Of a stretch of DNA of 64,000 nucleotides, positions 5,070-59,180 are shown piece after piece; the first letter of the stretch is position 1, and each line of letters starts with the position of its first letter. Below the pieces are notes generated by a model. The model was given only the letters and a program-made list of their open reading frames with translations. It ran no database searches and was not told the origin of the DNA. This DNA is from Alphaproteobacteria bacterium (lineage in GTDB: Bacteria > Pseudomonadota > Alphaproteobacteria > UBA9219): contig WRDR01000004.1 in the NCBI GenBank assembly GCA_009779745.1, forward strand, positions 3,713-67,712, in the 5' to 3' direction. The position numbers and the translations under genes are program-made.

Positions 5070-5327
5070 TATTTTTTCCTTTTGTCTTTATGATTTATGC
5101 TATCTTTTATAGGCATACTTACATTAATACAAGAAATCTGTTTGTTTTTGACTTAAATCAAGAATAATCATTTATTGTACAACTAATCTTATTTAATTTT
5201 GGTTAATTAACACTATGCGATTAACATTGGTTTAATGTTTTAGATTAACTTTTAGTTATAATTTGTTGTAATTACTTTCATCTTTTTATGGTACTATATA
5301 ATTATAGATCCTAAAGGGAGAAGTGAT

Positions 5328-6638
5328 ATGACAGCACATAATCCATACATAGTCAGCCTTGTTGCGGATGGTGACGAAAACAAACAGAGTTTCTTAAACT
5401 TAGACATAAGTACTCTGCATATAGATTTTGCCAACCTTAAACCAGAAGAATTTGGATTAAGTCCTGCCGACTTGGACATAAGTCCTTATCTTGTCATATT
5501 CGACAAGAAATATGCGCTTTTGAAACAACTGCCTGATATTGTCAAAACATCAATCGAAGCAAACATTAAGGAGAAGCCAGAATTTGTTCAGGAGATAGAA
5601 TTTGATTCTACTTGCGACACTTTGAATCTAGACGAACTGCAAAAACTGCTCGCATCAGAAAACAGAAAAGACGAGTTACAATCTATACGCGGACTGAAGA
5701 GAATAGATGGAAAAGACAATACTGCCAATATAAAACTGTTCTCATATTTAAGCAGGGAATTGAAAGCAAAAGTATGCGCTGTTGTTGCATTGGAAAAGTA
5801 TTATCCAAACAGTGATGATTATAATAGAGACGATATGATTCACATTCGGGACTATATTGTGCAGAAAGTGGACAATATGGACAAAGCCGAAGTGAGTAGG
5901 CTGAAACCGGATAGCTTTACTAAAGCCGCTACACAAGAAGCAATGTACGAAGAAGCGGAAACTTTTTTTGAGGCTGAGCGAGTTAAAGCAGGTGCTACTC
6001 AAGAGCAACCCGGAGATAAGGAGGAACTAAGCAGTTTCTATTTGAACGGCACGGAATATAAATTTTATAATCTATTGACAGAAAACGCTCTTAAGTACGA
6101 AGGCGATAAAATGAATCATTGTGTTGGTGGGTATTGGTCTAAGGTGGAAACGAAGGAAGTAAGAATTATATCGCTTCGTGATGACAAGAACGAGCCACGC
6201 GCAACATTGGAAATTGATACTAAGACAAATACCATAATCCAGATTCAAGGCAGAAAAAACAAAAACATCGACGAAAAATATCATCAGATGATTCTTGATT
6301 TTGTTTCTGAGCCTAAGTGGGAGATTGAGGTGAATGATAGATTTTTCGAAAAAATCCCAGCGGTTCGTTTGAAAGATGGTAAGATAAAATTGTGGACTGA
6401 TCTCGATATAGAAGATGCACGCAATGGCAACTTCACACGAGATTATGGTAATTCTTCTATGCACACAGAACAACGAAAAAATGTAAACACTATCGTCGCA
6501 TTAGGAACTGACGATGATAAGTGGTTTCTCAACAACACCTTGATCCTAAATAACATAACACAAAAGTGGTTTGAGTTGTTGCCGGGTTCCCAAATAGCTG
6601 CAAAAAAAACACCTTTTAACCATACACATAGACGGTAA
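5328..6638 (+). CDS. PcfJ-like protein (mobile-element associated), probably the 5' part of a frameshifted gene
   Basis: The segment LKYEGDKMNHCVGGYWSKVETKEVRIISLRDDKNEPRATLEIDTKTNTIIQIQGRKNKN matches my recollection of the PcfJ-domain core (L..EG..M.HCV..Y…SLR…TLE…Q.RG..N). The stop codon follows an A8 run at 6602-6609, and frame +1 stays open from 6598 into the next ORF. Confidence 0.5.
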   Translation: MTAHNPYIVSLVADGDENKQSFLNLDISTLHIDFANLKPEEFGLSPADLDISPYLVIFDKKYALLKQLPDIVKTSIEANIKEKPEFVQEIEFDSTCDTLNLDELQKLLASENRKDELQSIRGLKRIDGKDNTANIKLFSYLSRELKAKVCAVVALEKYYPNSDDYNRDDMIHIRDYIVQKVDNMDKAEVSRLKPDSFTKAATQEAMYEEAETFFEAERVKAGATQEQPGDKEELSSFYLNGTEYKFYNLLTENALKYEGDKMNHCVGGYWSKVETKEVRIISLRDDKNEPRATLEIDTKTNTIIQIQGRKNKNIDEKYHQMILDFVSEPKWEIEVNDRFFEKIPAVRLKDGKIKLWTDLDIEDARNGNFTRDYGNSSMHTEQRKNVNTIVALGTDDDKWFLNNTLILNNITQKWFELLPGSQIAAKKTPFNHTHRR

Positions 6639-6738
6639 AACAGATCTTAATAAAGATATTGTTGACGCAATCATATGCAGCAATATAGACGAGCTTATAA
6701 TAAACGGGGATTATAATAATGCACACGACCAAAACAGC

Positions 6739-7317
6739 ATGCCTATAATACATGCAGAGGATACTATAAATACACTCAAGGAATGTGAACGTTTGATCAG
6801 GCAATCAAAAGATCTTGTCCGTGTTACGATAGGCGGTGTCAATAGTGAACAGACATATCATCTTGTGCAAGCGATCGTAGAGAATCCTTCAATAAAAAAT
6901 TTCAAGGCATACAAAATACTGACAGAGGCTGCTATAAATTTAGTTGCTAAAAGTAATAATATAACTACTTTTTCAACTTGCTCAGAAGTCTACAAAGGCC
7001 GTTCCCGCCACTACTCTGAAGAAATAATTAGCGAAAGCATAACGGTCATTCGTACAGCATTGGAAACCGGAGAAAACCATAATTTACATCAAGTGTTTTT
7101 TCAACATAGTCCGATTCCAGAACTGGAACCTCTGCTTGCAGACAACAGACAAAAAGCAACCCGAGTTGTATTTGCAGATGTTTCCGAGACAGAGCATAAA
7201 ATAGAGCCTGAGCAGCCGGATGGAAAGCTTCTGTTACACAATATGGCAATTTGTCCCCTCCAGACGACACGTCCACAAACGACAAATCGTCCCTCGCTAA
7301 CTTGTTATGTTATATAG
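6739..7317 (+). CDS. Hypothetical protein; likely the 3' part of the same PcfJ-like gene, separated by a frameshift
   Basis: The reading frame is open upstream to 6598 (LQKKHLLTIHIDGKTDLNKDIVDAIICSNIDELIINGDYNNAHDQNSMPIIHAED…). A 1-nt contraction of the A8 run at 6602-6609 would fuse it in frame with 5328-6638. Confidence 0.4.
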   Translation: MPIIHAEDTINTLKECERLIRQSKDLVRVTIGGVNSEQTYHLVQAIVENPSIKNFKAYKILTEAAINLVAKSNNITTFSTCSEVYKGRSRHYSEEIISESITVIRTALETGENHNLHQVFFQHSPIPELEPLLADNRQKATRVVFADVSETEHKIEPEQPDGKLLLHNMAICPLQTTRPQTTNRPSLTCYVI

Positions 7318-7398
7318 ATATTTTTGAATTATCTGTGCTGCCGCAGCATTCTGCAACACCACGATATAAAAAACGCAGGGATTTCCGGTGAGAACAAC

Positions 7399-10441: not shown

Positions 10442-11395
10442 ATGTCTAAATCAAAAAATTTTTTAATAGAACCTGCTGATGATGATATAAGATTGGATCG
10501 CTGGTTTAAAAGGCATGTTCCGGATCTGACTAACGGGCAGGTACAGAAACTGATACGTACCGGACAAATACGCATTGACGGACAACGAGCTTCCGCATCG
10601 CAGCATATCAAAGCAGGACAAGAACTAAGGCTGCCTCCGCTGGCAGCCGGCATGACGGAGAGTCATAGTGATGAGAACGCTTACAAACCTTCCTTCACGC
10701 ATAAAAAAAACGATATAAGAAAAATGACGATTTTTGAAGATGATTACGTGCTGGTTTTAAATAAGCCTCACGGTCTTGCAGTACAAGGCGGTACCGGAAT
10801 CAAAAAAAGCATAGACGATATGCTGGAGGCACTGACAGACGCAAAACAAGGCAAGCCTAAATTAGTTCATCGTCTGGACAGAGACACCAGCGGAATACTT
10901 GTAATAGCTAAAAACATACAATCCGCAATGAGTCTGACAAAAGCGTTCAGACAGAAAAACACTGAAAAAACATATTGGGGAATAACTATCGGCGTTCCGG
11001 GTATTTCAGAAGGAATCATAGACGCTCCTTTGGCGAAAACAGGAGAAAAATCTATGATTTCCGACTCGGAACCGAACGCTAAAAACGCAGTAACTCAGTA
11101 CAGAATCATTGATAAGGCAAAAAAACTAGCCGCATTTGTTGAAATGCAGCCTTTGACAGGCAGAACTCATCAGCTTCGCGTGCACATGGCGAGTCTTGGC
11201 ACTCCTCTGCTCGGAGACAGGCTGTATGCCCCGCATGAACATGCTTTATCCGCATTAAAAGATTCTATTCCAACAGGTACTCTGCACCTCCATGCACGCA
11301 AAATCATAATCCCCCACCCGCACAAAGGTCTCATAGATGTTACAGCCCCTCTAAGCAGTGATATGGCGAAAACGTTTAAGTGGTTTGGGTTTTAA
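10442..11395 (+). CDS. RluA-family 23S rRNA pseudouridine synthase (RluC/RluD-like)
   Basis: The N-terminus has an S4-like domain (RLDRWFKRHVPDLTNGQVQKLIRTGQIRIDGQ). The catalytic motif HRLDRDTSGILVIAKN is present. Confidence 0.85.
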   Translation: MSKSKNFLIEPADDDIRLDRWFKRHVPDLTNGQVQKLIRTGQIRIDGQRASASQHIKAGQELRLPPLAAGMTESHSDENAYKPSFTHKKNDIRKMTIFEDDYVLVLNKPHGLAVQGGTGIKKSIDDMLEALTDAKQGKPKLVHRLDRDTSGILVIAKNIQSAMSLTKAFRQKNTEKTYWGITIGVPGISEGIIDAPLAKTGEKSMISDSEPNAKNAVTQYRIIDKAKKLAAFVEMQPLTGRTHQLRVHMASLGTPLLGDRLYAPHEHALSALKDSIPTGTLHLHARKIIIPHPHKGLIDVTAPLSSDMAKTFKWFGF

Positions 11396-11469
11396 GTGAG
11401 TGTGAAGTGTGGAATTATCGTTAGTCTTATGCTATGCTGAGTCATATTTGATTCTATGGAGAAACCGCG

Positions 11470-13251
11470 ATGAAAACTGTTTTTAAAATAATCTTCTCTC
11501 TTGCTGCGCTCGTAGTAGTCGCACTCACAGCTCTTCTTATATATCTTCACACCTTAGACGCTAATATTTATAAAGCGCAAGTGTCTAAGCTCGTTGCAGA
11601 GAACACAGACTACTCCGTGTCGCTGAACGGAGACGTATCGTTTTCTTTCGGGCTGTCCGGCATAGAATTAAAACTGGAAGACGCTGTCCTCACAGAGAAA
11701 GCCAGCTCTTCCATGAACACATCAATAAAAAAGATGTATCTGGGCGTAAAGCTGATTCCGCTCTTGTCCAAAAAGCTGGAGATAAAGAATTTTAATCTTG
11801 ATGATACGGTAGTAACGCTGCAGAATAAGAGTGAAAAGCCTACTGTCATAGATATTACTTCCCTTACTCTGACTCCAAAAGGAAAGCATACCGCCATATC
11901 TTTATTGGCGTACTCGAACGGAATGCCTATTAGTCTTGGCATAACCACTGACCTTGAACATTTCATGAATCCGGACAAATTTTCTTTCAGCCTCGCCGGT
12001 ATGGTGTCGGACACAAAAATTACTGCATCCGGCAATGTTAGCCTGCTGTCTAAAAATGCAAAGATAACGGATTACTCTGTTGAAAACAGCCTGATGCCGG
12101 AGAATACTAAAATAGGCGGACATGCTGATATAAACTGGGGAAGTGCTGTTCCCAGCCTCACCGGCTCCATAGAAGGCAAAACAGTAAATCTTGCTAATCT
12201 TTTGTCCGGTCTTAACTCAAAAGCTGCCGCTAATAACAATGCACCTGCTGCGCAAGCACCATTGGCAAACGACAAAAACTACATGTTCAGCGGAGAACCT
12301 CTGCCTTTCGATGCTCTCAAGCAAATCAATTTTGATATTGACATCATCATAGACGAGCTGCAAATCGCCAAAGGAGCTATAAAAAACCTGCAAATGAACG
12401 GACATTTGAAAAATCAGGTTTTAAACATAGTGTCTAAAAAAGCAGAAATTGATGCAAAGCCTGTCTCTTTCAAAATACTGGTAAATGCAGCCAATTATCC
12501 GGCTCATGTGTCTGCGCTGTTCTCGGCAAACGATGTCGCAGTAGGAAGCGTTTTAAACCTCATGAATATGAATGCCTTTATTTCCGGAACAGGAACTGCT
12601 GAGGCTAACATTATGAGTTATGGCAATACTATGCACCAGCTTGCCTCTAACCTTGACGGTACTTTGCTCATCACTGCAATAAACGGTGAAATCTTCACCG
12701 GCAGGCTTGGGCAGGTTTCATCGGCACTAACCTCATTTTTAACTTCGGCAAAAAGCAAAAGCGAGACAAACGCTCTTAACTGTATGGCTGCAAGATTCAT
12801 AGCTAAAAACGGAATAGTCACGGATAATGGGATTCTGCTGGATTCCGCCGGGTTGACTGTATTCGGAAAAGGCAATGCTAATTTATTGACTGAGTCTTTG
12901 GCGTTCAGATTTTTGGCCAGAACAAAACTGGCAGCAGTCGTAGAAAGCATTACTCCGGCTCTGGAAGTAACCGGTTCTCTTAAGGAACCGAATTACTCGC
13001 TGAACGCAAGCCAGCTTGTAGCCTCTGTTGTTGACGGAGTCATAAACGGCCAGCTGCCCACCCAAGCAGGCGTACCTAATATGCTGACTCCGCCAAGAGA
13101 GGCTAATGAGCCTAACGCCTGCGTATATACTCTGGATAATATAGGCAGAGCCATGCCGTTAGCTAAAGACACGGATAGCCCGATAGAGAACGTAAAACAA
13201 ACTATCAAGGATACGGGGAGCAAGCTGCTGAAGGGACTGTTTAAGAAGTAG
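11470..13251 (+). CDS. AsmA-family outer-membrane assembly protein
   Basis: An N-terminal transmembrane anchor (IIFSLAALVVVALTALLIYL) is followed by an AsmA-like β-rich domain. The protein is 593 aa. Confidence 0.7.
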   Translation: MKTVFKIIFSLAALVVVALTALLIYLHTLDANIYKAQVSKLVAENTDYSVSLNGDVSFSFGLSGIELKLEDAVLTEKASSSMNTSIKKMYLGVKLIPLLSKKLEIKNFNLDDTVVTLQNKSEKPTVIDITSLTLTPKGKHTAISLLAYSNGMPISLGITTDLEHFMNPDKFSFSLAGMVSDTKITASGNVSLLSKNAKITDYSVENSLMPENTKIGGHADINWGSAVPSLTGSIEGKTVNLANLLSGLNSKAAANNNAPAAQAPLANDKNYMFSGEPLPFDALKQINFDIDIIIDELQIAKGAIKNLQMNGHLKNQVLNIVSKKAEIDAKPVSFKILVNAANYPAHVSALFSANDVAVGSVLNLMNMNAFISGTGTAEANIMSYGNTMHQLASNLDGTLLITAINGEIFTGRLGQVSSALTSFLTSAKSKSETNALNCMAARFIAKNGIVTDNGILLDSAGLTVFGKGNANLLTESLAFRFLARTKLAAVVESITPALEVTGSLKEPNYSLNASQLVASVVDGVINGQLPTQAGVPNMLTPPREANEPNACVYTLDNIGRAMPLAKDTDSPIENVKQTIKDTGSKLLKGLFKK

Positions 13252-46588: not shown

Positions 46589-46613
46589 GAATGGAAAATT
46601 GAAAATGGAAAAT
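46589..46613 (+). repeat. Heptamer array, left flank of the four-helix-bundle gene
   Basis: The array reads ggaatggaaaattgaaaatggaaaatt. Confidence 0.8.
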
Positions 46614-46993
46614 TATTTTATATTTTTAGCGGTTTTATTGACTATTGCCGTGAGCAATTTCTCCAGTTCAACACAATCATTATAAATTGACTCTTTCATT
46701 TTAGAGTCAATATAATCAGTTGCAGCAAGTAATTTAATCCAATATTTTGTTTCGCTGCATTCTTTAAGTGAAATATTCATTTTCATCAAAAAGTCTTTTT
46801 TGCTTTGCCCTTGCTGAACCTCTGAAACGTTCGCTCCAATACTTGTACCACTTCTTAAAATCTGTTTCGACAAAACATATTCTTTCTTGTTATTAGCCAA
46901 ATATTGATATAATTTGACAATCCTAACAGCAAAAGCAAAACTTTTATCACTAACAATATTTTCTTTTTTTAATTTTCCATTTTCCATTTTCAA
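46613..46993 (-). CDS. Four-helix-bundle protein (23S rRNA intervening-sequence protein family, TIGR02436-like)
   Basis: The segment KSFAFAVRIVKLYQYL…QILRSGTSIGANVSEVQQGQSKKDF…ISLKECSETKYWIKLL is the signature of this family. The gene is bracketed by inverted GGAAAAT arrays. Confidence 0.7.
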   Translation of the reverse strand: MKMENGKLKKENIVSDKSFAFAVRIVKLYQYLANNKKEYVLSKQILRSGTSIGANVSEVQQGQSKKDFLMKMNISLKECSETKYWIKLLAATDYIDSKMKESIYNDCVELEKLLTAIVNKTAKNIK

Positions 46994-51651: not shown

Positions 51652-52431
51652 ATGCACATAGAAAAAGTCTGGGAACAAATAAAAATATCTGCGAAGCGTA
51701 TGGCGGAAGAGTCTCCTATACTGGCTAAGCTGGCTGAATCTGTTGTGCTTAACAGCCCTGATTTTAAAACTGCTCTCGGAAGAGTTCTATCCAGATACAA
51801 CAATGATACAACTGTTACTGCCGGCCAGTTGTTTGATTTGTTTGAATCTGTGTACTCTAAAGCTCCGGATATCATAGAGGCTGCTGCGTACGATATTCTG
51901 GCGGTACTGGACAGAGACCCGGCAGCGACCGATATAGCATATCCCTTTTTTCACTTCAAAGGCTTTCACGCCTTGCAAACATACCGCATATCTAATTTTC
52001 TGTGGAAGCAGGGACAGAAAGATACTGCCGTATTCCTGCAAAACAGAAGCAGCATGTTATATTCCGTAGACATTCACCCGGCTGCGAAAATAGGCAAAGG
52101 GATTTTGCTGGATCATGCGCACAGCGTAGTCATAGGAGAAACTGCGGTTATAGAGGATAATGTGTCTATGCTGCATGAAACAACGCTGGGCGGCAACGGC
52201 AAGGACAGAGGCGACAGGCACCCGAAGGTTCGGCAGGGCGTAGTCATAGGCGCAGGAGCAAAAATACTGGGCAACGTCACAATAGGCAAGAATTCCAGCA
52301 TAGCCTCCGGCAGTGTCGTGCTGGAAAATGTTGAGGAAAACACCACTGTGGCAGGAGTACCTGCAAAACTGGTAGGAAAAGCAAAACACGCTATGCCTTC
52401 CATGGAAATGGATCATACTTTGCCGTTATAA
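51652..52431 (+). CDS. cysE: Serine O-acetyltransferase
   Basis: The SATase N-terminal domain plus a hexapeptide-repeat C-terminus (GETAVIEDNVSMLHETTLGG…RHPKVRQGVVIGAGAKILGNVTIGKNSSIASGSVV) are present. The protein is 259 aa. Confidence 0.85.
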   Translation: MHIEKVWEQIKISAKRMAEESPILAKLAESVVLNSPDFKTALGRVLSRYNNDTTVTAGQLFDLFESVYSKAPDIIEAAAYDILAVLDRDPAATDIAYPFFHFKGFHALQTYRISNFLWKQGQKDTAVFLQNRSSMLYSVDIHPAAKIGKGILLDHAHSVVIGETAVIEDNVSMLHETTLGGNGKDRGDRHPKVRQGVVIGAGAKILGNVTIGKNSSIASGSVVLENVEENTTVAGVPAKLVGKAKHAMPSMEMDHTLPL

Positions 52432-52432
52432 A

Positions 52433-52466
52433 GGAAAGGAAAATGAAAAATTGAAAATGGAAAATA
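52433..52466 (+). repeat. Heptamer array downstream of cysE
   Basis: The array reads ggaaaggaaaatgaaaaattgaaaatggaaaat. Confidence 0.8.
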
Positions 52467-52520
52467 TGTAAAAATTACAAATTGTTAACAGACTATTCCT
52501 AATTCCTAATTTCACTTTTA

Positions 52521-52554
52521 ATTTTCCATTTTCTATTTTCCATTTTCCATTTTA
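52521..52554 (-). repeat. Heptamer array (inverted) upstream of the Hsp70-like gene
   Basis: The array reads ttaattttccattttctattttccattttccatttta. It forms an inverted pair with 52433-52466 around a 55-bp spacer. Confidence 0.8.
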
Positions 52555-52603
52555 TATAATTATGCTATAAAGCTATGTTTATAATAAATAAATGGAAATA
52601 TAA

Positions 52604-55174
52604 ATGTACATAGGAATCGACTTAGGCACCTCAAACAGCTCTATAGCAGGCATTATTGACGGTAAACCCAGAGTTTTCCGCCCGGCAGACGGAGGCGAAG
52701 TTCTGCCCTCTATGATATATTTCGATAAAAGAAACCACAGATTGTTCGGACGCAGAGCATATGACAAAGCGTTAATATCTCCTGAAAATGTGATTTCCGG
52801 GTTTAAAAGGCTTATGGGTTCGGCAACTAAACTGGAAGTCAAATCGCTGAAACAGGAACTGTCGCCCGAAGAATGTGCCGCAGAAATCATAAGACAGCTT
52901 CTGGCTCAAGCCCAAACTGAAACAGGCAATGAGAAAATAGACGGAGCAGTCATTACTATTCCGGCATCTTTCAATCAGACGCAATCTCAGGCAACATTAA
53001 AAGCAGCGCAAATGGCCGGGCTCGAAAGAGTGGACCTTTTGCAGGAACCAATAGCAGCCGCTATAGCCTCTATGCAGGGCGCAAAGAGATCCGGAAAGTT
53101 TATAATATACGACCTCGGCGGAGGAACTTTCGACATAGCTCTGGCACAAGCAATGAACGGAGACGTGACTATACTGGCGCATCAAGGCATCAACATGCTG
53201 GGCGGGCGTGATTTTGACAGAATGATAGTGAAGAATATCGTAAGACCTTGGCTTGAGAAAATGTTCTCATTGCCTAAGGGTTTTGCTGCGAAAAAAGAGT
53301 ATGTAAAAGTGCTCAGAATAGCGCAGCTCGCAGCGGAAAAAGCAAAGATAGATTTATCTTCAATGGACAGCACCAGCATCATAGCCTCTGATGAAGAAAT
53401 AGGAGTGCAGGACCAGAACGGCTTGGAAATGTATCTGGACATACCGCTTTCTAAGGAACAGTTTAACGAGATAATCCGCCCTTACGTACTGAAGACCATA
53501 GATGTTATACGCAATATGTGCGAAGAAGCGGAGGTAAAGACTACGGACATAGACCGCATAGTCTTCATAGGAGGCTCCAGCAAAATACCTCTGATACGGG
53601 ATATAGTCGCCGCAGAACTGGATATTGCCGCAGATATGAAAACAGATCCCATGACTACTGTCGCAATAGGAGCTGCTTATTACTGCGAGAGCAGAGAGTG
53701 GTCTGTTGATAATAAAAGCTCTTCCGGTGCCGCTAAGAAAGCAACAGTATCGCAAGATGCGAAAGATAAGAAGTTTGAAATATCATATGCGTTCACTGCA
53801 AGAACTCCTAATGATAAATCTGAAATAACAGTGATATTGTCTAAGGAAAAGCCCGCAGATTTTAAGATAAAAATAAAGAATCAAGAGTGGGATTCCGGAA
53901 GCCTGCCTCTTATGGACGAACTCACAATACAGATTCCTCTGAATAATATAGGCGATAATGTTTTTGAAGCTCTAATTTTTGACAAGAACGGAAATGAACA
54001 GTCCGAGTATACTCAGAACATAACTATCAAAAGGCTTATAGCTACTGCCTCACAGATTCCCGCAGGGCATACCATAGCGATAAAAGTACGCAATCCGGAA
54101 ATTCAAACTGAAAATAAGCTGGTGAATATAATTACTAAGGGCGAGCTGCTCCCTACGCAAGGCGAGTGTTTTTTCGAGAGCACTAGGACTCTTAATCCGG
54201 GCAGGACCGGAAGCATAAGTTTCGAGCTGTTTCAGGTAGAGTATCAGGAAAACATAAATCTCAACTTGTGCATAGGAGCGTTTAGAATAGAAGCCTCCGA
54301 CTTGCCACCTAATACAAAAATAGAAAAAGGAACTCCGCTGATTTTTACGTGGGACATGAGCGAGAGCGGGATTCTGGAAGCGACAGTAACAATAAAAGCA
54401 TCGGACAGTAAAATAATAGAGCTGAAAACTCCTAAATTTTATGCGCCTCAGGCAGGACAGGTTTCTTTTGCAGGAGAAAGCGGCGTTACCTTTTCCAGAG
54501 AATTGATGAAGCGCGCATCTGAAGATTTAGGCGACCTCATAGCGGCAACAGGTCCTGATGCAGGAGCGGAAGTGAACATTTTAAAGATAAAACTGCAGGA
54601 ACAGGAAGAGCTGATTAATGACAATCCCAGTGATCCGGAAATCATATGCAAGATATGTGAAGAGATACGCTTCATACGTCAGGATATAGCAAAAATCGGC
54701 AAGATGTATTTCAAGGCTATGATGATACGAAGGCTTGGAAAACTGGAGGCGGTATTCAACAGAGTCGCAGGAGAGTTTGCCAGTGAAAAAGAGAAACAGT
54801 CTTTTAATACTTACAAAGATAAAATACACGATATACTCGATGAAATACATATAAAAGCAGATATTGACGGCAATTCGGCTATGGTATTAAAAGTGAAGAA
54901 GTATAAGGCGAAGATGAAGAGCCTGTTCTTCTCGATAGCATGGCGCAACGATGAATACATCAAGACTTGGTTTGAAAAGCTGGTTGAAGAAAAGTATATG
55001 TTTACGGATAAAACAGCTTATGAAGAGCTTCTCCGTCTTGGAAATGAGAGCATAGAAAAAGGCAATTTTGATAATCTGAGAGACATAGTGAAAAAATTGC
55101 TGGACGAGAGGATTTCTCTGAACGTGAGCGAAACCGCCGATGAGCTTGCGAATATAATCGCGAAGGCGGAGTAA
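52604..55174 (+). CDS. Atypical Hsp70-family protein: a canonical N-terminal actin-like ATPase domain fused to a ~480-aa non-canonical C-terminal region
   Basis: The Hsp70 NBD motifs are present: IGIDLGTSNS, IIYDLGGGTFDIAL and VFIGGSSKIPLIRD. No recognisable DnaK substrate-binding or lid sequence follows residue ~375. Instead there is a β-rich segment followed by a K/E-rich helical C-terminus. The total length is 856 aa, against ~640 for DnaK. Confidence 0.75.
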   Translation: MYIGIDLGTSNSSIAGIIDGKPRVFRPADGGEVLPSMIYFDKRNHRLFGRRAYDKALISPENVISGFKRLMGSATKLEVKSLKQELSPEECAAEIIRQLLAQAQTETGNEKIDGAVITIPASFNQTQSQATLKAAQMAGLERVDLLQEPIAAAIASMQGAKRSGKFIIYDLGGGTFDIALAQAMNGDVTILAHQGINMLGGRDFDRMIVKNIVRPWLEKMFSLPKGFAAKKEYVKVLRIAQLAAEKAKIDLSSMDSTSIIASDEEIGVQDQNGLEMYLDIPLSKEQFNEIIRPYVLKTIDVIRNMCEEAEVKTTDIDRIVFIGGSSKIPLIRDIVAAELDIAADMKTDPMTTVAIGAAYYCESREWSVDNKSSSGAAKKATVSQDAKDKKFEISYAFTARTPNDKSEITVILSKEKPADFKIKIKNQEWDSGSLPLMDELTIQIPLNNIGDNVFEALIFDKNGNEQSEYTQNITIKRLIATASQIPAGHTIAIKVRNPEIQTENKLVNIITKGELLPTQGECFFESTRTLNPGRTGSISFELFQVEYQENINLNLCIGAFRIEASDLPPNTKIEKGTPLIFTWDMSESGILEATVTIKASDSKIIELKTPKFYAPQAGQVSFAGESGVTFSRELMKRASEDLGDLIAATGPDAGAEVNILKIKLQEQEELINDNPSDPEIICKICEEIRFIRQDIAKIGKMYFKAMMIRRLGKLEAVFNRVAGEFASEKEKQSFNTYKDKIHDILDEIHIKADIDGNSAMVLKVKKYKAKMKSLFFSIAWRNDEYIKTWFEKLVEEKYMFTDKTAYEELLRLGNESIEKGNFDNLRDIVKKLLDERISLNVSETADELANIIAKAE

Positions 55175-55234
55175 TTCCACACTTCACATTAAAAAGAAAC
55201 ATTGACTTGTTGGATGTTTAATCATACCCTCCTA

Positions 55235-55501
55235 TTCGAATGCGGGGTACCCCCGTATTCTGAGTGCCTTAATTGGTGCAAGAGAGCATTAAACAGCTCA
55301 TACTAAACGCGGTACAGGAGCTACCGTTAAGTTAAGGAATACCCGCGCCTGGCGGTAGTGTCCTTTTGCCTGTGCTCCTCGGTCCTTTGTGGTCGGGGAG
55401 CCTGTGGTGTATGTTCAGAGGCTTGCCTTAAAGACCACGGGGTCATTCGTTTAGTATGATTGTTTAACTCTCCGGCCACCCTTTTAGGGTGGCTTTGTTT
55501 T
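55235..55501 (+). ncRNA. Candidate structured RNA (riboswitch-like leader or sRNA) ending in an intrinsic terminator
   Basis: A long-range 10-bp pairing forms between catactaaac (55300) and gtttagtatg (55451). Internal hairpins include cggta-caggagc-taccg and cgcc-tgg-cgg. The terminator hairpin gccaccc-tttta-gggtggc plus tttgtttt lies at 55475-55501, directly before the SD and ATG of a 35-aa peptide ORF. Confidence 0.35.
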
Positions 55502-55526
55502 ACGTGTAAACATGAAGGAGAATAAA

Positions 55527-55634
55527 ATGAAAACAGCACAATCTAAATTTCCGAGCAAAACCTTTTTAGCAACTCTTGCCCTTGTATTTTTCGTTGCTTA
55601 TGTTGTTTATTTTATTAAGTATTTGCTAAGCTAG
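55527..55634 (+). CDS. Small hydrophobic peptide (35 aa), putative single-pass membrane peptide
   Basis: A strong SD (aaggag) lies 7 nt before the ATG. The peptide reads MKTAQSKFPSKTFLATLALVFFVAYVVYFIKYLLS. It is below the ORF-track size cutoff. Confidence 0.35.
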   Translation: MKTAQSKFPSKTFLATLALVFFVAYVVYFIKYLLS

Positions 55635-55729: not shown

Positions 55730-56461
55730 TCACATTACCTCTTCCAGCCCGTACAGCAGCGTTTTCTTCCCAACTATATTCTTAGCTGCCAGCCTTATGC
55801 CTGCACTGAAAGAAGACCTGTCCGAAGAATCATGCTCTATCGACAACGTTTGCCCTGTGTCTCCAAAAATCACTTTTTCTTGGGCTATTACTCCTGTTCT
55901 TCTTATCGAGTGAATCCTTACTCCTCTTACTTCTCCTCCACGGAATTCATTAATCTCGCCAAGCTCCCCGGGCACCTGCATAGCCGCCTCTGCCCTGCCC
56001 TCTGCTATCAGCTCCGCAGTCCTTACCGCAGTTCCGGACGGCGCATCCAGCTTTTTCTCATGATGAGATTCTATAATCTCTACGTAAGGCATGTACTTCG
56101 CAGCTTCCTTTGCAAACTTCATTAACAGCACCGCACCTATCGCAAAATTAGGAACGATAATTCCTCCGATTTTTTTTTCATCACATACTTTTCTTAAAGA
56201 CGCAACCTGCTCTCCGGTAAAACCGCTAGTCCCGATTACCGGCTGCGCTCCGGCATTGATAATCTTCAAAAAATTCTCATGCCCCAGCCCTGCAAATGTA
56301 AAGTCTATCACAACCTGCGGTTTATAAGCCTTTATTGCTTCTTCCAGATTATCCTCTTTATCAGTCTGCCCAACCAGCGCAAAATCAGAGTCAGAAGAAA
56401 TAGCTCCGGCAGCCAAAGTCCCCATACGCCCCTTAGCTCCATTTATCAAAACAGAAATCAT
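55730..56461 (-). CDS. dapB: 4-hydroxy-tetrahydrodipicolinate reductase
   Basis: The N-terminus MISVLINGAKGRMGTLAAGAI (NAD(P)-binding) and the C-terminal DapB domain (EIIESHHEKKLDAPSGTA) are present. The protein is 243 aa. Confidence 0.9.
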   Translation of the reverse strand: MISVLINGAKGRMGTLAAGAISSDSDFALVGQTDKEDNLEEAIKAYKPQVVIDFTFAGLGHENFLKIINAGAQPVIGTSGFTGEQVASLRKVCDEKKIGGIIVPNFAIGAVLLMKFAKEAAKYMPYVEIIESHHEKKLDAPSGTAVRTAELIAEGRAEAAMQVPGELGEINEFRGGEVRGVRIHSIRRTGVIAQEKVIFGDTGQTLSIEHDSSDRSSFSAGIRLAAKNIVGKKTLLYGLEEVM

Positions 56462-56898: not shown

Positions 56899-57198
56899 AT
56901 GACGGATAAAATAGAATATAAATTAGACGAAGCCGACAACAGCGTTGGCGCATATCTGGACAACAAAAAAATCGGTGAGCTTAATTTCACAACAGAATAT
57001 CCCTCGATTCTGGCAATCACTCGAACTTGGACAGATGATGAATTCCGGGGACGCGGCATAGGAGCCGAATTAGTACGCTATATAGCAGAGTATGCGCGTA
57101 AAAATGAAAAAAAGATAATATCGAAGTGCAGCTTTGCGGTAACGTTCTTCAAAAACAACCCTGCATTTCAAGACTTAGAGTATAAAGAGTCTACTTAG
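56899..57198 (+). CDS. Small GNAT-family N-acetyltransferase
   Basis: The acetyl-CoA-binding pattern DDEFRGRGIGAELVRYIAEYAR is present. The protein is 99 aa from the ATG with a GGAAGGGAG SD; the ORF-track start at 56875 is upstream of the SD. Confidence 0.7.
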   Translation: MTDKIEYKLDEADNSVGAYLDNKKIGELNFTTEYPSILAITRTWTDDEFRGRGIGAELVRYIAEYARKNEKKIISKCSFAVTFFKNNPAFQDLEYKEST

Positions 57199-57517
57199 TA
57201 ACCCACTCGCCTTTGGCATTCTGGTATTTAGACCCAGCAGGCAGTTTGGCTATTATCTCTTCAGCAGCCAGCTTTGCGACTATGTCAACAGGCTGACCGT
57301 TTTCTTTGGATATTTTCGCATATGCAGCCTGTCTTTGAGCGTTTACGCCGGCGACAAAACTTGCTACTTCAGCGTCCTTAGATATAGCCGTAACAAATCC
57401 GTTTAGATTCTCACCCACAAGACCGCTTTTGCGCGCTTGCTGTAAATCCATAGCCTGCGCCGCTGTTGCACACATAAAAAACAGCATTGCCGCTGCCAGA
57501 AACATTTTGAACTTCAT
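57191..57517 (-). CDS. ydbL: YdbL-family (DUF1318) periplasmic protein
   Basis: A signal peptide plus LQQARKSGLVGENLNGFV…GVNAQRQAAYAKIS…YQNAKGEWV are present. It is the third gene of a ydbH-ynbE-ydbL-type operon. Confidence 0.7.
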   Translation of the reverse strand: MKFKMFLAAAMLFFMCATAAQAMDLQQARKSGLVGENLNGFVTAISKDAEVASFVAGVNAQRQAAYAKISKENGQPVDIVAKLAAEEIIAKLPAGSKYQNAKGEWVTK

Positions 57518-57538
57518 TTATTTTCTCCTTCTCAAAAA

Positions 57539-57727
57539 CTAGAATATATTAGGATTATCAGCAATCGCTTTTCTTACGTCCTGCTGTATTTCTACTTTAA
57601 CGTGCTGCTCTATTTTCACGTTCAGGTTAATCTCTATGGGCTTATCCGGAGCCTCTACTTTTACCGTAGGAGAACACGCAGCCATTCCTAAGACCATGAC
57701 AGTTATAGCCAATAAATTAATATTCAT
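57539..57727 (-). CDS. ynbE: YnbE-family lipoprotein
   Basis: The protein is 62 aa with a lipobox (LGMAAC) and repeats VKVEAPDKPIEINLNVKIEQHVKVEIQ, typical of YnbE. Confidence 0.7.
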   Translation of the reverse strand: MNINLLAITVMVLGMAACSPTVKVEAPDKPIEINLNVKIEQHVKVEIQQDVRKAIADNPNIF

Positions 57728-57728
57728 A

Positions 57729-59180
57729 TCAAATTCCCATTTCTTTTGTTTGCTGCAACAATTTTTGAGGCTTTGTTAACAGCATAAAATTTTGTTGAAT
57801 CAGGTTTATCATATCGCCTTGAAGGTTAACATTTAATTTAACAGGTCTGCCGTTTTCTACAACAGGATTATTGCCCTCTATCTTCATTTTTATGACCATT
57901 TCGCCGGAAGGCAGAGTATCCAGCTCCAAGACCAGAGCAGAAAAATGAAAATTCTGAACTATGTTTCTTACCAGCTCCACAGCTACGTTGTCTCCCGGGA
58001 TATACTCAGGCGGCAAGGTTAGGGTTCCGGGCTCTATAGCCTTTAAAATTCCGTTATGAACCAGTATGTTATTATCCTCTGTAAATGTGATAGGTAATTT
58101 CCCGGATATTTTGCCGGTTATGGATATTTTGTCCTCCAGCATTGTTTTTAACAGCTCCTCCGCTGAAACAGCCTCAACGTTCAGCGTAAACTTTATGCTT
58201 TTATTCTTGCCCGAATCACCCATAGGTATAGAAATCTTACTCGCAGAAAAAAAGCCTCCTCCGAAAGCATAGTTTATCTTGTCTATGTTCAATATCTGTT
58301 TGTTCGGCTCATGAATTAAATCAAAATTCACGCTGAATGCGTTGTTTTCTCCTAATAATTTCCCTTTATATTTCGCATATATTCCCGAATCTTTTTTCTG
58401 TTCAACACTAAGCGTGCCGTCTCCTGAAAACAGCGGAATATCTATGTCTCCTGCCTCTACCTTAGCTTCCGATATTTTCAAGTTCCCGGACCAGCCGAAT
58501 TTCTCTATATCAGCAAAATTTCTAACAGTACTCTTTCCTTCTCCTGTCAAACTCTTAATCGTACCTTTTAATTCATCAAATTTAAAAGATGCGCTATTTA
58601 CTTCAAAAGTATCAAACATCTCACCTATGGCAATACTCGGCACCTCCAGTTCAAAATTCTCAGACTTCGCCTGTACTCCTGAAATATTTATTCCTTTCAG
58701 AATGATGTCTTCTAATTTTAATCCGTTATGCTCAAAATATGATTCAACCTTTTCAATTGCCGTATCAATTTCAGCCGCATTCACAAAAATATTTGTTATT
58801 TCTGCTTTTGAAAAATCAAAAGGAGCCGTGATACGGGCTGCCCCTGCTGTTACAGCTTCAGACAAAAAGAACAATTCTGACAAGCTAATCGTCTCTTCTA
58901 TGAGATTCGGATACACTCTGCCGACTGAAAACCTGTTCCCGTCCAGTTTCAACTCTATGCCGTCAACTTCCAACTCAAATAAATTAAACTTGGAAACTTT
59001 GAAGCTTACGTCCTCGTGCCCCATGCCTTCAAGCGTTTGTTTTAACGGCTTTTCTATTAAAGTATCCAAAAACACTGCCGAATACCCCAGAACCCACACA
59101 AACACGACAAATGCAGCAACCGTAAACAGTTCTCCGAATATTCTTGCTTTTAAAAAGAATTTTGCTCCTTTATCCCACAC
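57729..59180 (-). CDS. ydbH: YdbH-like (AsmA-like / dicarboxylate-transport domain) membrane-anchored protein
   Basis: An N-terminal TM anchor is followed by a β-rich domain. Its position directly upstream of ynbE-ydbL mirrors E. coli ydbH-ynbE-ydbL. The protein is 483 aa, shorter than E. coli YdbH. Confidence 0.55.
   Translation of the reverse strand: MWDKGAKFFLKARIFGELFTVAAFVVFVWVLGYSAVFLDTLIEKPLKQTLEGMGHEDVSFKVSKFNLFELEVDGIELKLDGNRFSVGRVYPNLIEETISLSELFFLSEAVTAGAARITAPFDFSKAEITNIFVNAAEIDTAIEKVESYFEHNGLKLEDIILKGINISGVQAKSENFELEVPSIAIGEMFDTFEVNSASFKFDELKGTIKSLTGEGKSTVRNFADIEKFGWSGNLKISEAKVEAGDIDIPLFSGDGTLSVEQKKDSGIYAKYKGKLLGENNAFSVNFDLIHEPNKQILNIDKINYAFGGGFFSASKISIPMGDSGKNKSIKFTLNVEAVSAEELLKTMLEDKISITGKISGKLPITFTEDNNILVHNGILKAIEPGTLTLPPEYIPGDNVAVELVRNIVQNFHFSALVLELDTLPSGEMVIKMKIEGNNPVVENGRPVKLNVNLQGDMINLIQQNFMLLTKPQKLLQQTKEMGI

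What the first reader, a model, noticed from the sequence alone, without database searches (positions are those of the whole stretch)
52604..55174. Atypical 856-aa Hsp70: canonical ATPase domain fused to an unrelated ~480-aa C-terminal region
The N-terminal ~375 aa carry all Hsp70/actin-fold phosphate and adenosine motifs (IGIDLGTSNS, DLGGGTFDIAL, GGSSKIPLI). From residue ~380 there is no DnaK substrate-binding β-sandwich or lid signature. Instead there is a long β-rich segment followed by a K/E-rich α-helical tail. No adjacent dnaJ or grpE is present. The gene is isolated between cysE and a structured-RNA region, and repeat arrays lie immediately upstream. Non-canonical Hsp70-like ATPases of this architecture are poorly characterised. 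This one could be a specialised chaperone or the ATPase part of an uncharacterised, possibly symbiosis-related or defence-related, system.
Basis: partly seen in the sequence, partly recalled or inferred. Interest (0 to 1): 0.55.

Follow-up and report, generated by a model that had tools for sequence, protein, structure and literature searches.

The report
Long Hsp70 paralog with extra domain
This gene encodes a member of a rare, unstudied branch of the Hsp70 chaperone family that keeps the ATPase and a divergent client-binding domain, adds an extra beta-sandwich domain and a long helical tail, and probably works beside the normal DnaK, while distant relatives sit in small gene cassettes on mobile elements.

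Summary
The 856-aa ORF (52604-55174, +) is real, and its N-terminal Hsp70 ATPase domain is confirmed with all catalytic residues intact. The claim that the C-terminal 480 aa are unrelated to Hsp70 is wrong. A deep-family profile, two AlphaFold models and Foldseek all show that residues ~490-613 form a divergent Hsp70 substrate-binding beta domain followed by a lid-like helical region. Three features are unusual. A ~100-aa beta-sandwich is inserted between the ATPase and the substrate-binding domain. The helical domain is about twice the DnaK length. The residues DnaK uses for J-domain contact and interdomain allostery are replaced (R167D, R151S, K155L, D481S). The architecture is fixed in a rare family (~250 clusters at the 50% level) that has no Pfam model for its C-terminal part and that I could not find described. 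The window's clade is a standalone chromosomal gene of uncultured Micavibrio-like Alphaproteobacteria, and relatives also carry a canonical DnaK. Deeper branches sit in mobile 3-4 gene cassettes (large protein, small protein, Hsp70-like, often an AAA ATPase). Best reading: a specialised, non-canonical Hsp70 chaperone descended from such a cassette. It is a new variant of a known kind, of moderate interest.

The parts
52604..55174 (+). Complete gene for the 856-aa long Hsp70 paralog (stop codon 55172-55174)
   Evidence: ORF list. More than 100 full-length homologs of 840-878 aa at 49-56% identity. The identical protein is found on 5 metagenomic contigs.
52604..53692 (+). Residues 1-363: Hsp70/actin-fold nucleotide-binding domain, predicted to be catalytically competent
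   Evidence: Pfam PF00012 over residues 3-362, E 1.6e-68. The equivalents of DnaK D8, K70, E171, D194, T199 and D201 are invariant in 88 family members. Identity is 31-33% to E. coli DnaK, HscA and HscC.
53693..53737 (+). Residues 364-378: low-confidence, poorly conserved connector
   Evidence: pLDDT is about 52 here and falls below 50 at residues 375-379. Identity is 23-31% and the segment is gapped in the deep family.
53738..54034 (+). Residues 379-477: inserted seven-strand beta-sandwich domain with no counterpart in DnaK, HscA or HscC
   Evidence: AF2 strands 379-477, pLDDT mostly 79-92. Present in all deep-family members, gap fraction 0.02. Not a detectable duplicate of SBD-beta (hhalign 3%). 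Only a sub-threshold Pfam Cadherin-like hit, seen in 2 of 41 members.
54071..54442 (+). Residues 490-613: divergent Hsp70 substrate-binding beta domain (SBD-beta)
   Evidence: hhalign of the family profile against authentic E. coli SBDs: DnaK 80% (E 1.4e-5), HscA 64%, HscC 55%. hmmsearch second domain on M. tuberculosis DnaK 6w6e_I, i-E 4.2e-5. Foldseek of the C-terminal model: the top 46 hits are all Hsp70 SBDs, and beta-only superpositions have RMSD ~4 A over 127-137 columns. DnaK K414, P419 and F426 are kept, and V436 and I438 stay hydrophobic.
54473..55108 (+). Residues 624-835: nine-helix domain. Its first helices align with the Hsp70 lid (SBD-alpha); the remainder has no detectable relative.
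   Evidence: AF2 helices 624-835. The HMM alignment runs to DnaK residue 575. Foldseek SBD hits span 230-300 columns, which includes lid helices. Taken alone, the domain is not detectably similar in sequence to the DnaK lid (hhalign 0.3%).
55109..55171 (+). Residues 836-856: C-terminal tail ending in the conserved motif ...ELANIIAKAE (family consensus ELATIVKA)
   Evidence: A hydrophobic-hydrophobic-basic motif occurs in the last 10 residues of 115/116 close and 21/43 deep members, against 12-18% in control windows. AF2 predicts a short strand at residues 851-853.
52432..52603 (.). AT-rich upstream intergenic region (presumed promoter) with the heptamer array ATTTTCC x4.7 at 52521-52553 and inverse GGAAAAT-type copies at about 52437-52466
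   Evidence: TRF and direct reading of the sequence. Function not tested.
55474..55494 (+). Intrinsic-terminator-like hairpin followed by a T-run, ~300 nt after the stop codon. It is a possible end of the transcript, so the structured stretch 55215-55505 could be a 3' UTR or a separate small RNA.
   Evidence: Terminator scan. RNA fold z = -5.81. No Rfam family. Whether it belongs to this gene is not established.

Best explanation
The gene encodes a specialised, non-canonical Hsp70-type chaperone that works beside the organism's ordinary DnaK. Shown or strongly indicated: it has a catalytically intact Hsp70 ATPase domain, a divergent but recognisable peptide-binding SBD-beta with a largely hydrophobic pocket, and a lid-like helical domain. 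These sit in a fixed architecture that also includes a ~100-aa beta-sandwich inserted at the NBD-SBD junction and a doubled helical domain. Inferred: it binds and releases extended polypeptide segments in an ATP-dependent cycle. Its coupling and partner use differ from DnaK, because the residues DnaK uses to contact the J-domain and to dock the SBD on the NBD (R167, R151, K155, D481) are replaced, and because a whole domain interrupts the normally indel-intolerant junction. The extra beta-sandwich and the long helical domain would provide client or partner recognition. The conserved hydrophobic-basic C-terminal tail may be a docking or pseudo-substrate motif. In evolutionary terms, the window's clade is a standalone, chromosomally fixed descendant of a family whose other branches are encoded in mobile 3-4 gene cassettes (large protein, small protein, Hsp70-like, often an AAA ATPase).
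For: Domain assignment: Pfam and NCBIfam cover only the NBD. SBD-beta is supported by the deep profile, by the AF2 models with pLDDT 80.6 and 81.7, and by Foldseek, where the full model matches full-length DnaK, BiP, Ssb and Sse1 over 600-830 columns and the C-terminal model returns Hsp70 SBDs as all top 46 hits. Catalytic residues are invariant, J and allosteric residues are replaced, and pocket residues are kept. The architecture is fixed: about 250 clusters at the 50% level, nearly all ~830-850 aa with the C-terminal region at residues ~385-840, and all domains are present in the deep family. It is a paralog, not the housekeeping DnaK: 31% identity to EcDnaK, and the DnaK equivalog scores 249 bits against a cutoff of 822. 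L016 carries both this gene and a canonical DnaK that is 65.6% identical to EcDnaK. DnaK orthologs are listed on contigs of exactly the same lengths as six long-Hsp70 contigs. It is standalone in housekeeping context, between cysE and dapB, with no recurrent co-chaperone neighbour. The NJ tree nests the window's clade among cassette-borne members. Published work says Hsp70 function is sensitive to indels at interdomain contacts, and that HscC, which has such indels, lacks DnaK-like refolding activity (PMC8910936).
Against: No experimental data exist for any member. The structures are predictions, and the relative domain positions could not be inspected because no coordinates were accessible. 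The SBD-beta sequence signal is modest (80% hhalign probability; HMM i-E 4e-5) and is absent with the shallow close-family profile. Most of the helical domain and the insert have no identified relatives, so their roles are guesses. The loss of R167, R151 and K155 could mean that ATP hydrolysis is not coupled to substrate binding at all. The tree is neighbour-joining without support values. Presence of a canonical DnaK in the window's own genome was not shown directly.
Confidence: 0.6

Rival explanations
1. The protein is still a conflict or defence component: a single-gene remnant of the mobile Hsp70-like + AAA cassette that senses or remodels invader proteins, and not a housekeeping-type chaperone.
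For: Distant relatives sit next to integrase, Prim-Pol and BrnT/CopG toxin-antitoxin genes and in predicted prophages. Their AAA partner resembles the defence ATPases IetA and TRIP13 (E 1e-31). P0128 weakly hits the PADLOC candidate PDC-M61B (E 4e-5, NBD region only).
Against: The window protein has no PADLOC hit. None of the cassette partners is in the window or in the 55 close loci. The neighbours are core genes (ligA, cysE, dapB, gltX). The gene is found in 52 species representatives of one lineage and none of its subfamily occurs in viral contigs, a pattern of vertical inheritance and not of an island.
Confidence: 0.15
2. It is a bacterial analogue of Hsp110/Grp170: an Hsp70-family protein that mainly holds substrates and/or acts as a nucleotide-exchange factor for the canonical DnaK, without running its own J-driven cycle.
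For: It has an enlarged SBD region and a long helical domain, as Hsp110 does. DnaK's allosteric and J-contact residues are lost while nucleotide-binding residues are kept. Sse1 structures are among the Foldseek hits (E 6e-26, 828 columns). It coexists with a canonical DnaK in relatives.
Against: DnaK, BiP and Ssb structures score better than Sse1. The extra domain lies before SBD-beta, not inside it as in Hsp110. In the tree with E. coli DnaK, HscA and HscC the family forms its own separate clade. No interaction data exist.
Confidence: 0.1
3. One reading: a canonical ATPase fused to an unrelated ~480-aa region of novel fold, with no substrate-binding domain.
For: Single-sequence and shallow-profile searches find nothing for residues 363-856. 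The insert and most of the helical domain do lack identifiable relatives.
Against: SBD-beta is detected by profile and by fold. Key SBD residues are conserved.
Confidence: 0.03
4. It is simply the organism's divergent housekeeping DnaK.
For: No other dnaK lies in the 64-kb window.
Against: It is 31% identical to EcDnaK, whereas the true DnaK of a close relative is 65.6% identical. The two genes coexist on L016 and, by matching contig lengths, on five other contigs. It falls far below the DnaK equivalog cutoff. No dnaJ or grpE is linked.
Confidence: 0.02

Closest known systems
DnaK (canonical bacterial Hsp70)
   Same: Same NBD fold with all catalytic residues. SBD-beta fold with K414, P419, F426 and hydrophobic pocket positions retained. 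A helical lid follows. DnaK gives the best sequence and structure matches of any solved protein.
   Different: Only 31% NBD identity. A ~100-aa beta-sandwich is inserted at the NBD-SBD junction. The helical domain is ~210 aa, about twice the DnaK lid. The changes R167D, R151S, K155L, N170Q and D481S are present. No dnaJ-grpE linkage. It coexists with a true DnaK in relatives.
HscC (E. coli specialised Hsp70, partner DjlC)
   Same: A divergent, non-essential Hsp70 paralog with altered interdomain regions. It is reported not to refold DnaK clients or to complement a dnaK deletion (PMC8910936 citing Kluck et al. 2002). NBD identity to the query is similar (31%).
   Different: HscC is short (556 aa) with deletions, not a domain insertion. 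It is encoded next to its J-protein DjlC. The query has no J-protein neighbour, and in the tree the family forms its own clade apart from HscC.
HscA (Fe-S cluster chaperone)
   Same: Highest pairwise NBD identity (33%). The HscA SBD structure 1u00 is among the fold hits.
   Different: No hscB, iscU or fdx neighbourhood. HscA model scores are far below cutoff (224 against 708 bits). The extra domains are absent from HscA.
Hsp110 / Sse1 / Grp170 (eukaryotic large Hsp70 relatives)
   Same: A large Hsp70-family protein with an enlarged C-terminal half and presumably altered allostery. Sse1 appears among the Foldseek hits.
   Different: Known only from eukaryotes (my own knowledge). Its insertion lies within SBD-beta and not before it. 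It matches less well than DnaK. Nothing here indicates common descent.
CnuD, the Hsp70-like NBD/SBD + HEAT-like helical protein of Type III CoCoNuT (McrBC-type) systems (PMC11090510)
   Same: An Hsp70-like NBD/SBD joined to a helical domain and encoded in defence or mobile contexts, like the cassette-borne relatives of this gene.
   Different: CnuD is described with degenerate ATPase motifs and McrB/McrC partners. This family has invariant catalytic residues and no McrBC neighbours. Sequence relationship was not tested because no CnuD sequence was at hand.
YegD (short actin/Hsp70-like ATPase without an SBD)
   Same: Hsp70-family NBD.
   Different: 25% identity. YegD has no SBD. The model score is 68 against a cutoff of 331 bits.

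Membership tests
Hsp70 superfamily (Pfam PF00012) | Actin-fold NBD matching the family model above its gathering score | tested here: met
   231.8 bits against a cutoff of 20.6, residues 3-362.
Hsp70 superfamily (Pfam PF00012) | Catalytic residues (DnaK D8, K70, E171, D194, T199, D201) | tested here: met
   Present in the query; five of the six are identical in all 88 aligned family members, and D8 in 87 of 88 with one gap.
Hsp70 superfamily (Pfam PF00012) | C-terminal substrate-binding beta domain | tested here: met
   hhalign 80% (E 1.4e-5) to EcDnaK SBD. HMM second domain i-E 4.2e-5 on 6w6e_I. Foldseek top 46 hits are all Hsp70 SBDs. This rests on a profile and on predicted structures, not on an experiment.
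Hsp70 superfamily (Pfam PF00012) | Alpha-helical lid (SBD-alpha) following SBD-beta | tested here: inconclusive
   Helices start at residue 624. The HMM and Foldseek alignments extend into lid helices, but the helical domain alone shows no sequence similarity to the DnaK lid (0.3%) and is about twice as long.
Hsp70 superfamily (Pfam PF00012) | Short conserved hydrophobic interdomain linker directly joining NBD and SBD | tested here: not met
   A low-confidence connector plus a ~100-aa beta-sandwich (residues 364-489) separates the two domains.
DnaK (NCBIfam TIGR02350 / NF001413 equivalogs) | Score at or above the curated equivalog cutoff | tested here: not met
   248.9 against 822.55 bits, and 238.9 against 648 bits; the match covers the NBD only.
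DnaK (NCBIfam TIGR02350 / NF001413 equivalogs) | J-domain contact and allosteric residues (R167, N170, R151, K155, D481) | tested here: not met
   D, Q, S, L and S in the query; the same residues are the commonest at each position across the 88 aligned family members.
DnaK (NCBIfam TIGR02350 / NF001413 equivalogs) | Being the genome's housekeeping Hsp70, usually linked to dnaJ and grpE | tested here: not met
   No dnaJ or grpE in the window. In relatives a separate canonical DnaK exists. The window's own complete genome could not be examined.
HscA (TIGR01991) | Equivalog cutoff and isc/hscB/fdx neighbourhood | tested here: not met
   224.5 against 708.55 bits. The neighbours are cysE and dapB.
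HscC subfamily | Close sequence relationship to HscC and an adjacent DjlC-type J-protein | tested here: not met
   31% NBD identity, no better than to DnaK or HscA. The family is a separate clade in the NJ tree. No J-domain is in the window.
Hsp110/Grp170 | Large Hsp70 relative acting as a nucleotide-exchange factor for Hsp70 | not testable with these tools
   Only structural resemblance could be scored, and it is weaker than to DnaK. The activity needs biochemistry.
Known or candidate anti-phage defence systems (PADLOC-DB 2.0) | Match to a defence-system protein model and to its partner genes | tested here: not met
   No PADLOC hit for the window protein at E <= 1. Cassette partners are absent from the window.
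CoCoNuT CnuD Hsp70-like proteins | Association with McrB/McrC-type genes and degenerate ATPase motifs | tested here: not met
   No McrBC-like neighbours in the window or in the cassette loci. Catalytic residues are intact. Direct sequence comparison was not done.

The most novel reading that the evidence does not exclude
The long-Hsp70 family is the core ATPase of an undescribed mobile 3-4 gene system: a large, partly membrane-anchored protein, a ~120-aa protein, the Hsp70-like protein, and often an IetA-like AAA ATPase. In this reading the system brings its own non-canonical co-factors and acts in inter-genome conflict. The window's gene is then a domesticated orphan of that system, which now works as a J-protein-independent chaperone, perhaps self-regulated by its conserved hydrophobic-basic C-terminal tail acting as a built-in pseudo-substrate.
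Probability: 0.3. Interest if true: 0.7.

Novelty: new variant of a known kind. Interest (0 to 1): 0.5.

Why it matters
Hsp70 allostery depends on a short linker and on an indel-intolerant NBD-SBD interface. A conserved family that places a whole folded domain at that junction, replaces the J-domain and docking residues, and still keeps every catalytic residue and a peptide-binding domain is therefore a natural experiment in how an Hsp70 can be re-wired. If the cassette-borne relatives prove to be a conflict system built around an Hsp70 and an AAA ATPase, that would add a chaperone-based mechanism to the known repertoire of mobile-element functions. The standalone copy in predatory-type Micavibrio-like Alphaproteobacteria would then be an example of domestication. 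For annotation, these genes are currently labelled 'molecular chaperone DnaK' or 'Hsp70 family protein', and the first label is misleading.

Tried and rejected
1. Single-sequence phmmer of residues 363-856 against PDB sequences gave only chance-level antibody hits.
2. The close-family C-terminal profile (A3) against PDB gave nothing. Only the deep profile A2 worked.
3. PADLOC on the window protein gave nothing.
4. Rfam at gathering and relaxed thresholds found no family for the downstream structured region. ARAGORN found no tmRNA.
5. tblastn found neither the 224-aa neighbour of relatives nor any cassette partner in the window.
6. My impression from memory that the cassette's small protein is GrpE-like and the large protein's N-terminus is J-like was tested. 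hhalign aligned the expected regions but with probability below 1%, so neither claim is made.
7. The insert as a duplicated SBD-beta was rejected (hhalign 3%).
8. Pfam 'Cadherin-like' as a name for the insert is sub-threshold and seen in only 2 of 41 members, so it is not used.
9. A viral-contig scan with a deep C-terminal alignment failed because the tool found no conserved stretch. The close-family scan found no viral members.
11. Organism names for distant members could not be obtained.
12. My typed E. coli DnaK differed from the authentic sequence at one NBD residue. The SBD was identical and the comparison was repeated with authentic sequences.
Full report
**The observation.** The window has an 856-aa ORF at 52604..55174 on the + strand with an ATG start. 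Pfam HSP70 matches residues 3-362 only (E 1.6e-68). NCBIfam models for DnaK and HscA also match only the N-terminal ~360 residues and score far below their cutoffs: DnaK 248.9 against 822.55 bits, HscA 224.5 against 708.55, and the YegD-type model 68.5 against 331. The identical protein occurs on five metagenomic contigs. The longest is 116,767 bp and has the same neighbours as the window. A 100%-identical fragment is labelled 'MAG: Alphaproteobacteria bacterium'.

**Surroundings.**
- Upstream lie ligA (-) and cysE (+, 51652-52431). Downstream, and convergent, lies dapB (-, 55730-56461). After that come a GNAT gene, the ydbL/ynbE/ydbH-like trio and gltX.
- No second Hsp70, J-domain or GrpE is detectable anywhere in the 64 kb.
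- The 172-bp upstream spacer is AT-rich. It holds a heptamer array ATTTTCC x4.7 (52521-52553) and inverse GGAAAAT-type copies about 60 bp further upstream.
- The 555-bp downstream gap has no long ORF. Positions 55215-55505 fold far better than shuffled sequence (z = -5.81, 0 of 200 shuffles) and end in a terminator-like hairpin at 55474-55494. No Rfam family matches, and the element is single-copy.

**The C-terminal half is not unrelated to Hsp70.** Single-sequence searches of residues 363-856 find nothing, and neither does a profile of the close family alone. A profile that includes distant family members gives a different answer.
- hhalign against the authentic E. coli SBDs gives 80% probability (E 1.4e-5) for DnaK, 64% for HscA and 55% for HscC. 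Query residues ~488-597 align to DnaK residues ~396-490.
- hmmsearch of the full-family profile against PDB sequences gives a second significant domain on M. tuberculosis DnaK (6w6e_I, i-E 4.2e-5). It aligns profile positions 504-708 to DnaK residues 381-575.
- AlphaFold2 models of the whole protein (pLDDT 80.6) and of residues 376-856 alone (pLDDT 81.7) agree on the layout:

| Residues | Element |
|---|---|
| 1-363 | NBD |
| 364-378 | poorly predicted connector |
| 379-477 | seven-strand beta-sandwich |
| 490-613 | eight-strand beta domain (SBD-beta) |
| 624-835 | nine helices |
| 836-856 | short tail with a strand at 851-853 |

- Foldseek with the full model returns full-length DnaK, BiP, Ssb and Sse1 with 600-830 aligned columns (E down to 6e-34).
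- With the NBD removed, all 46 significant hits are Hsp70 substrate-binding domains. Beta-only superpositions have RMSD ~4 A over 127-137 columns.
- DnaK K414, P419 and F426 are conserved, and pocket positions V436 and I438 stay hydrophobic.

**What is unusual.**
1. A folded ~100-aa beta-sandwich sits between the NBD and SBD-beta, where canonical Hsp70s have only a short hydrophobic linker. It is present in every family member examined (gap fraction 0.02). It is not a detectable duplicate of SBD-beta, and it has no reliable Pfam assignment.
2. The helical domain is about twice the length of the DnaK lid. Beyond its first helices it has no detectable relative.
3. All ATPase catalytic residues are invariant, but the residues DnaK uses to contact the J-domain and to dock the SBD are replaced: R167D, N170Q, R151S, K155L and D481S.
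4. The extreme C-terminus carries a conserved hydrophobic-hydrophobic-basic motif (…ELANIIAKAE; family consensus ELATIVKA). It occurs in 115/116 close and 21/43 deep members, against 12-18% in control windows.

Published work on bacterial Hsp70 indels reports that function is highly sensitive to indels and that interdomain-contact regions avoid them. It also reports that HscC, which breaks this rule, lacks DnaK-like refolding activity (PMC8910936).

**The family.**
- Full-length homologs of 840-878 aa at 49-56% identity are numerous in metagenomes.
- Searching residues 376-856 alone against 1.84 billion cluster representatives gives only 250 hits. Nearly all are ~830-850-aa proteins with the match at residues ~385-840, and no ordinary DnaK appears in the list.
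- The NBD is 31-33% identical to E. coli DnaK, HscA and HscC and 25% to YegD.
- In a neighbour-joining tree (no support values) the family is a single clade apart from those three.
- A scan of species-representative genomes found the close subfamily in 52 species. All are MAGs labelled Alphaproteobacteria, Rhodospirillaceae, 'Bdellovibrionales' or Micavibrio. NCBI still files Micavibrio under Bdellovibrionales, so these labels are consistent with one Micavibrio-like alphaproteobacterial lineage. That last step is an inference.

**Not the only DnaK.**
- In L016, a close relative, the long gene (4837-7359, +) and a canonical DnaK (11240-13159, -; 65.6% identical to E. coli DnaK) lie 4 kb apart.
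- Using that DnaK as a query, its orthologs (84-93% identical to each other) are listed on contigs of exactly the same lengths as contigs carrying the long gene: 77,306; 160,873; 530,650; 889,751; 1,069,489; and 1,248,920 bp.
- The length match is a proxy for being on the same contig. L016 is direct evidence. The window's own genome could not be checked beyond its 64 kb.

**Gene context of the close clade.**
- No co-chaperone or other partner is consistently linked.
- The only recurrent neighbour is a 224-aa ORF 43-127 bp downstream on the same strand in all but one case (L044: 732 bp), present in 19 of 48 loci with enough flank.
- That ORF is a very conserved hypothetical protein confined to the same lineage. 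It has no Pfam or PADLOC match and is absent from the window.

**Gene context of distant branches.**
- P0128, P0139, P0164, P0134/P0275 and P0222, plus two predicted prophage contigs, show a recurrent cassette. It consists of a 565-657-aa protein (an 823-aa TPR protein in the P0222 locus), a 114-125-aa protein immediately upstream, the Hsp70-like gene, and in several cases a 463-476-aa AAA ATPase starting within a few bases of the stop codon.
- In the four loci compared directly (L060, L065, L066, L067), the large, small and AAA partners are homologous between loci.
- The AAA protein resembles the IetA and TRIP13 defence ATPases (E 1e-31).
- Integrase, Prim-Pol and BrnT/CopG genes lie nearby.
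- P0241 has a variant context with a 219-aa ORF and a double-AAA protein.
- None of these partners is in the window or in the close loci. The close subfamily is absent from viral contigs. The nearest outgroup of the window's clade (P0123) is also standalone.
- The simplest reading is that the cassette is ancestral and the alphaproteobacterial clade kept only the Hsp70-like gene.
- My impressions that the small protein is GrpE-like and the large one J-like were tested and not supported.

**Mechanism.**
- Shown or strongly indicated: an intact Hsp70 ATPase, a peptide-binding-type beta domain and a lid-like helical region, in a protein under clear constraint across all its domains.
- Inferred: an ATP-driven bind-and-release cycle on extended polypeptides, with non-canonical coupling and partner use. 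The inserted domain and the long helical domain would then serve client or partner recognition.
- Speculative: the C-terminal motif as a pseudo-substrate or docking peptide.
- Rivals:
  - a surviving defence function;
  - an Hsp110-like holdase or exchange factor for DnaK;
  - the sole housekeeping DnaK, which contradict for relatives.

**Comparison and novelty.** It works most like a specialised Hsp70 paralog such as HscC, but it fails the membership tests for DnaK, HscA, HscC and YegD. It is larger, in the manner of Hsp110, without evidence of common descent. Defence-linked Hsp70-like proteins with helical extensions have been described in CoCoNuT systems (CnuD; PMC11090510), but those have degenerate ATPase motifs and McrBC partners, which do not fit here. 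I found no paper describing this architecture. The paper library is limited to open-access texts, so prior description elsewhere cannot be excluded. Verdict: a real feature, a new variant of a known kind, of moderate interest.

Noticed in passing
window 55215-55505 (+): A GC-richer stretch of ~290 nt between the convergent Hsp70-like and dapB genes folds much better than shuffled sequence (MFE -119.7 kcal/mol, z = -5.81). It ends in a terminator-like hairpin at 55474-55494. No Rfam family, tRNA or tmRNA matches, and it is single-copy in the window. It could be a long 3' UTR or an unclassified small RNA.
   Followed up: partly
window 55512-55634 (+): A 40-aa ORF (MKENKMKTAQSKFPSKTFLATLALVFFVAYVVYFIKYLLS) follows directly after the terminator, preceded by AAGGAG. 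It has a hydrophobic, transmembrane-like C-terminal half and may be a small membrane protein.
   Followed up: no
window 52432-52603: The very AT-rich spacer before the gene contains ATTTTCC x4.7 (52521-52553) and oppositely oriented GGAAAAT-type copies at about 52437-52466, which together form an imperfect inverted arrangement of heptamers. It may be a regulatory site. No match to the simple sigma-70 consensus scan on the + strand lies within the spacer.
   Followed up: partly
L060 5637-11928; L065 2632-8632; L066 6996-13060; L067 3510-8334; L070 54-6197; L071 and L072: Distant relatives of the window protein sit in a conserved, apparently mobile cassette: a 565-657-aa unknown protein (a hydrophobic, transmembrane-like stretch near residue 500 in L060; an 823-aa TPR protein instead in L070), a 114-125-aa unknown protein, the Hsp70-like protein (831-845 aa) and often an IetA/TRIP13-like AAA ATPase (463-476 aa). 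Integrase, Prim-Pol and BrnT/CopG genes lie nearby, and two copies are in predicted prophage contigs. The cassette is not in PADLOC as a system.
   Followed up: partly
L001 12598-13272; L002 12609-13283; 17 further loci: A 224-aa hypothetical protein with no Pfam or PADLOC match, 68-88% identical across its homologs, follows the long Hsp70 gene on the same strand in 19 of 48 related loci (43-127 bp downstream in all but L044, 732 bp). It is confined to the same alphaproteobacterial MAG lineage and is absent from the window. It could be a lineage-specific partner or client.
   Followed up: partly
L002 14008-17690: In one relative, cobT/cobS-like (vWA + AAA_5) genes and a 195-aa J-domain protein lie 1.5-5 kb downstream of the long Hsp70 gene. 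From my own knowledge this trio is a common alphaproteobacterial arrangement, so the proximity is probably coincidental.
   Followed up: no
window about 46613-46987 (-): A 124-aa protein of the '23S rRNA intervening-sequence protein' family (PF05635) is encoded between a UvrD-type helicase and a GGDEF protein (converted from L062 coordinates).
   Followed up: no
window 57191-59180 (-): A ydbH-like (PF11739), ynbE-like lipoprotein (PF13617) and ydbL-like (DUF1318) gene trio is intact just downstream of dapB.
   Followed up: no
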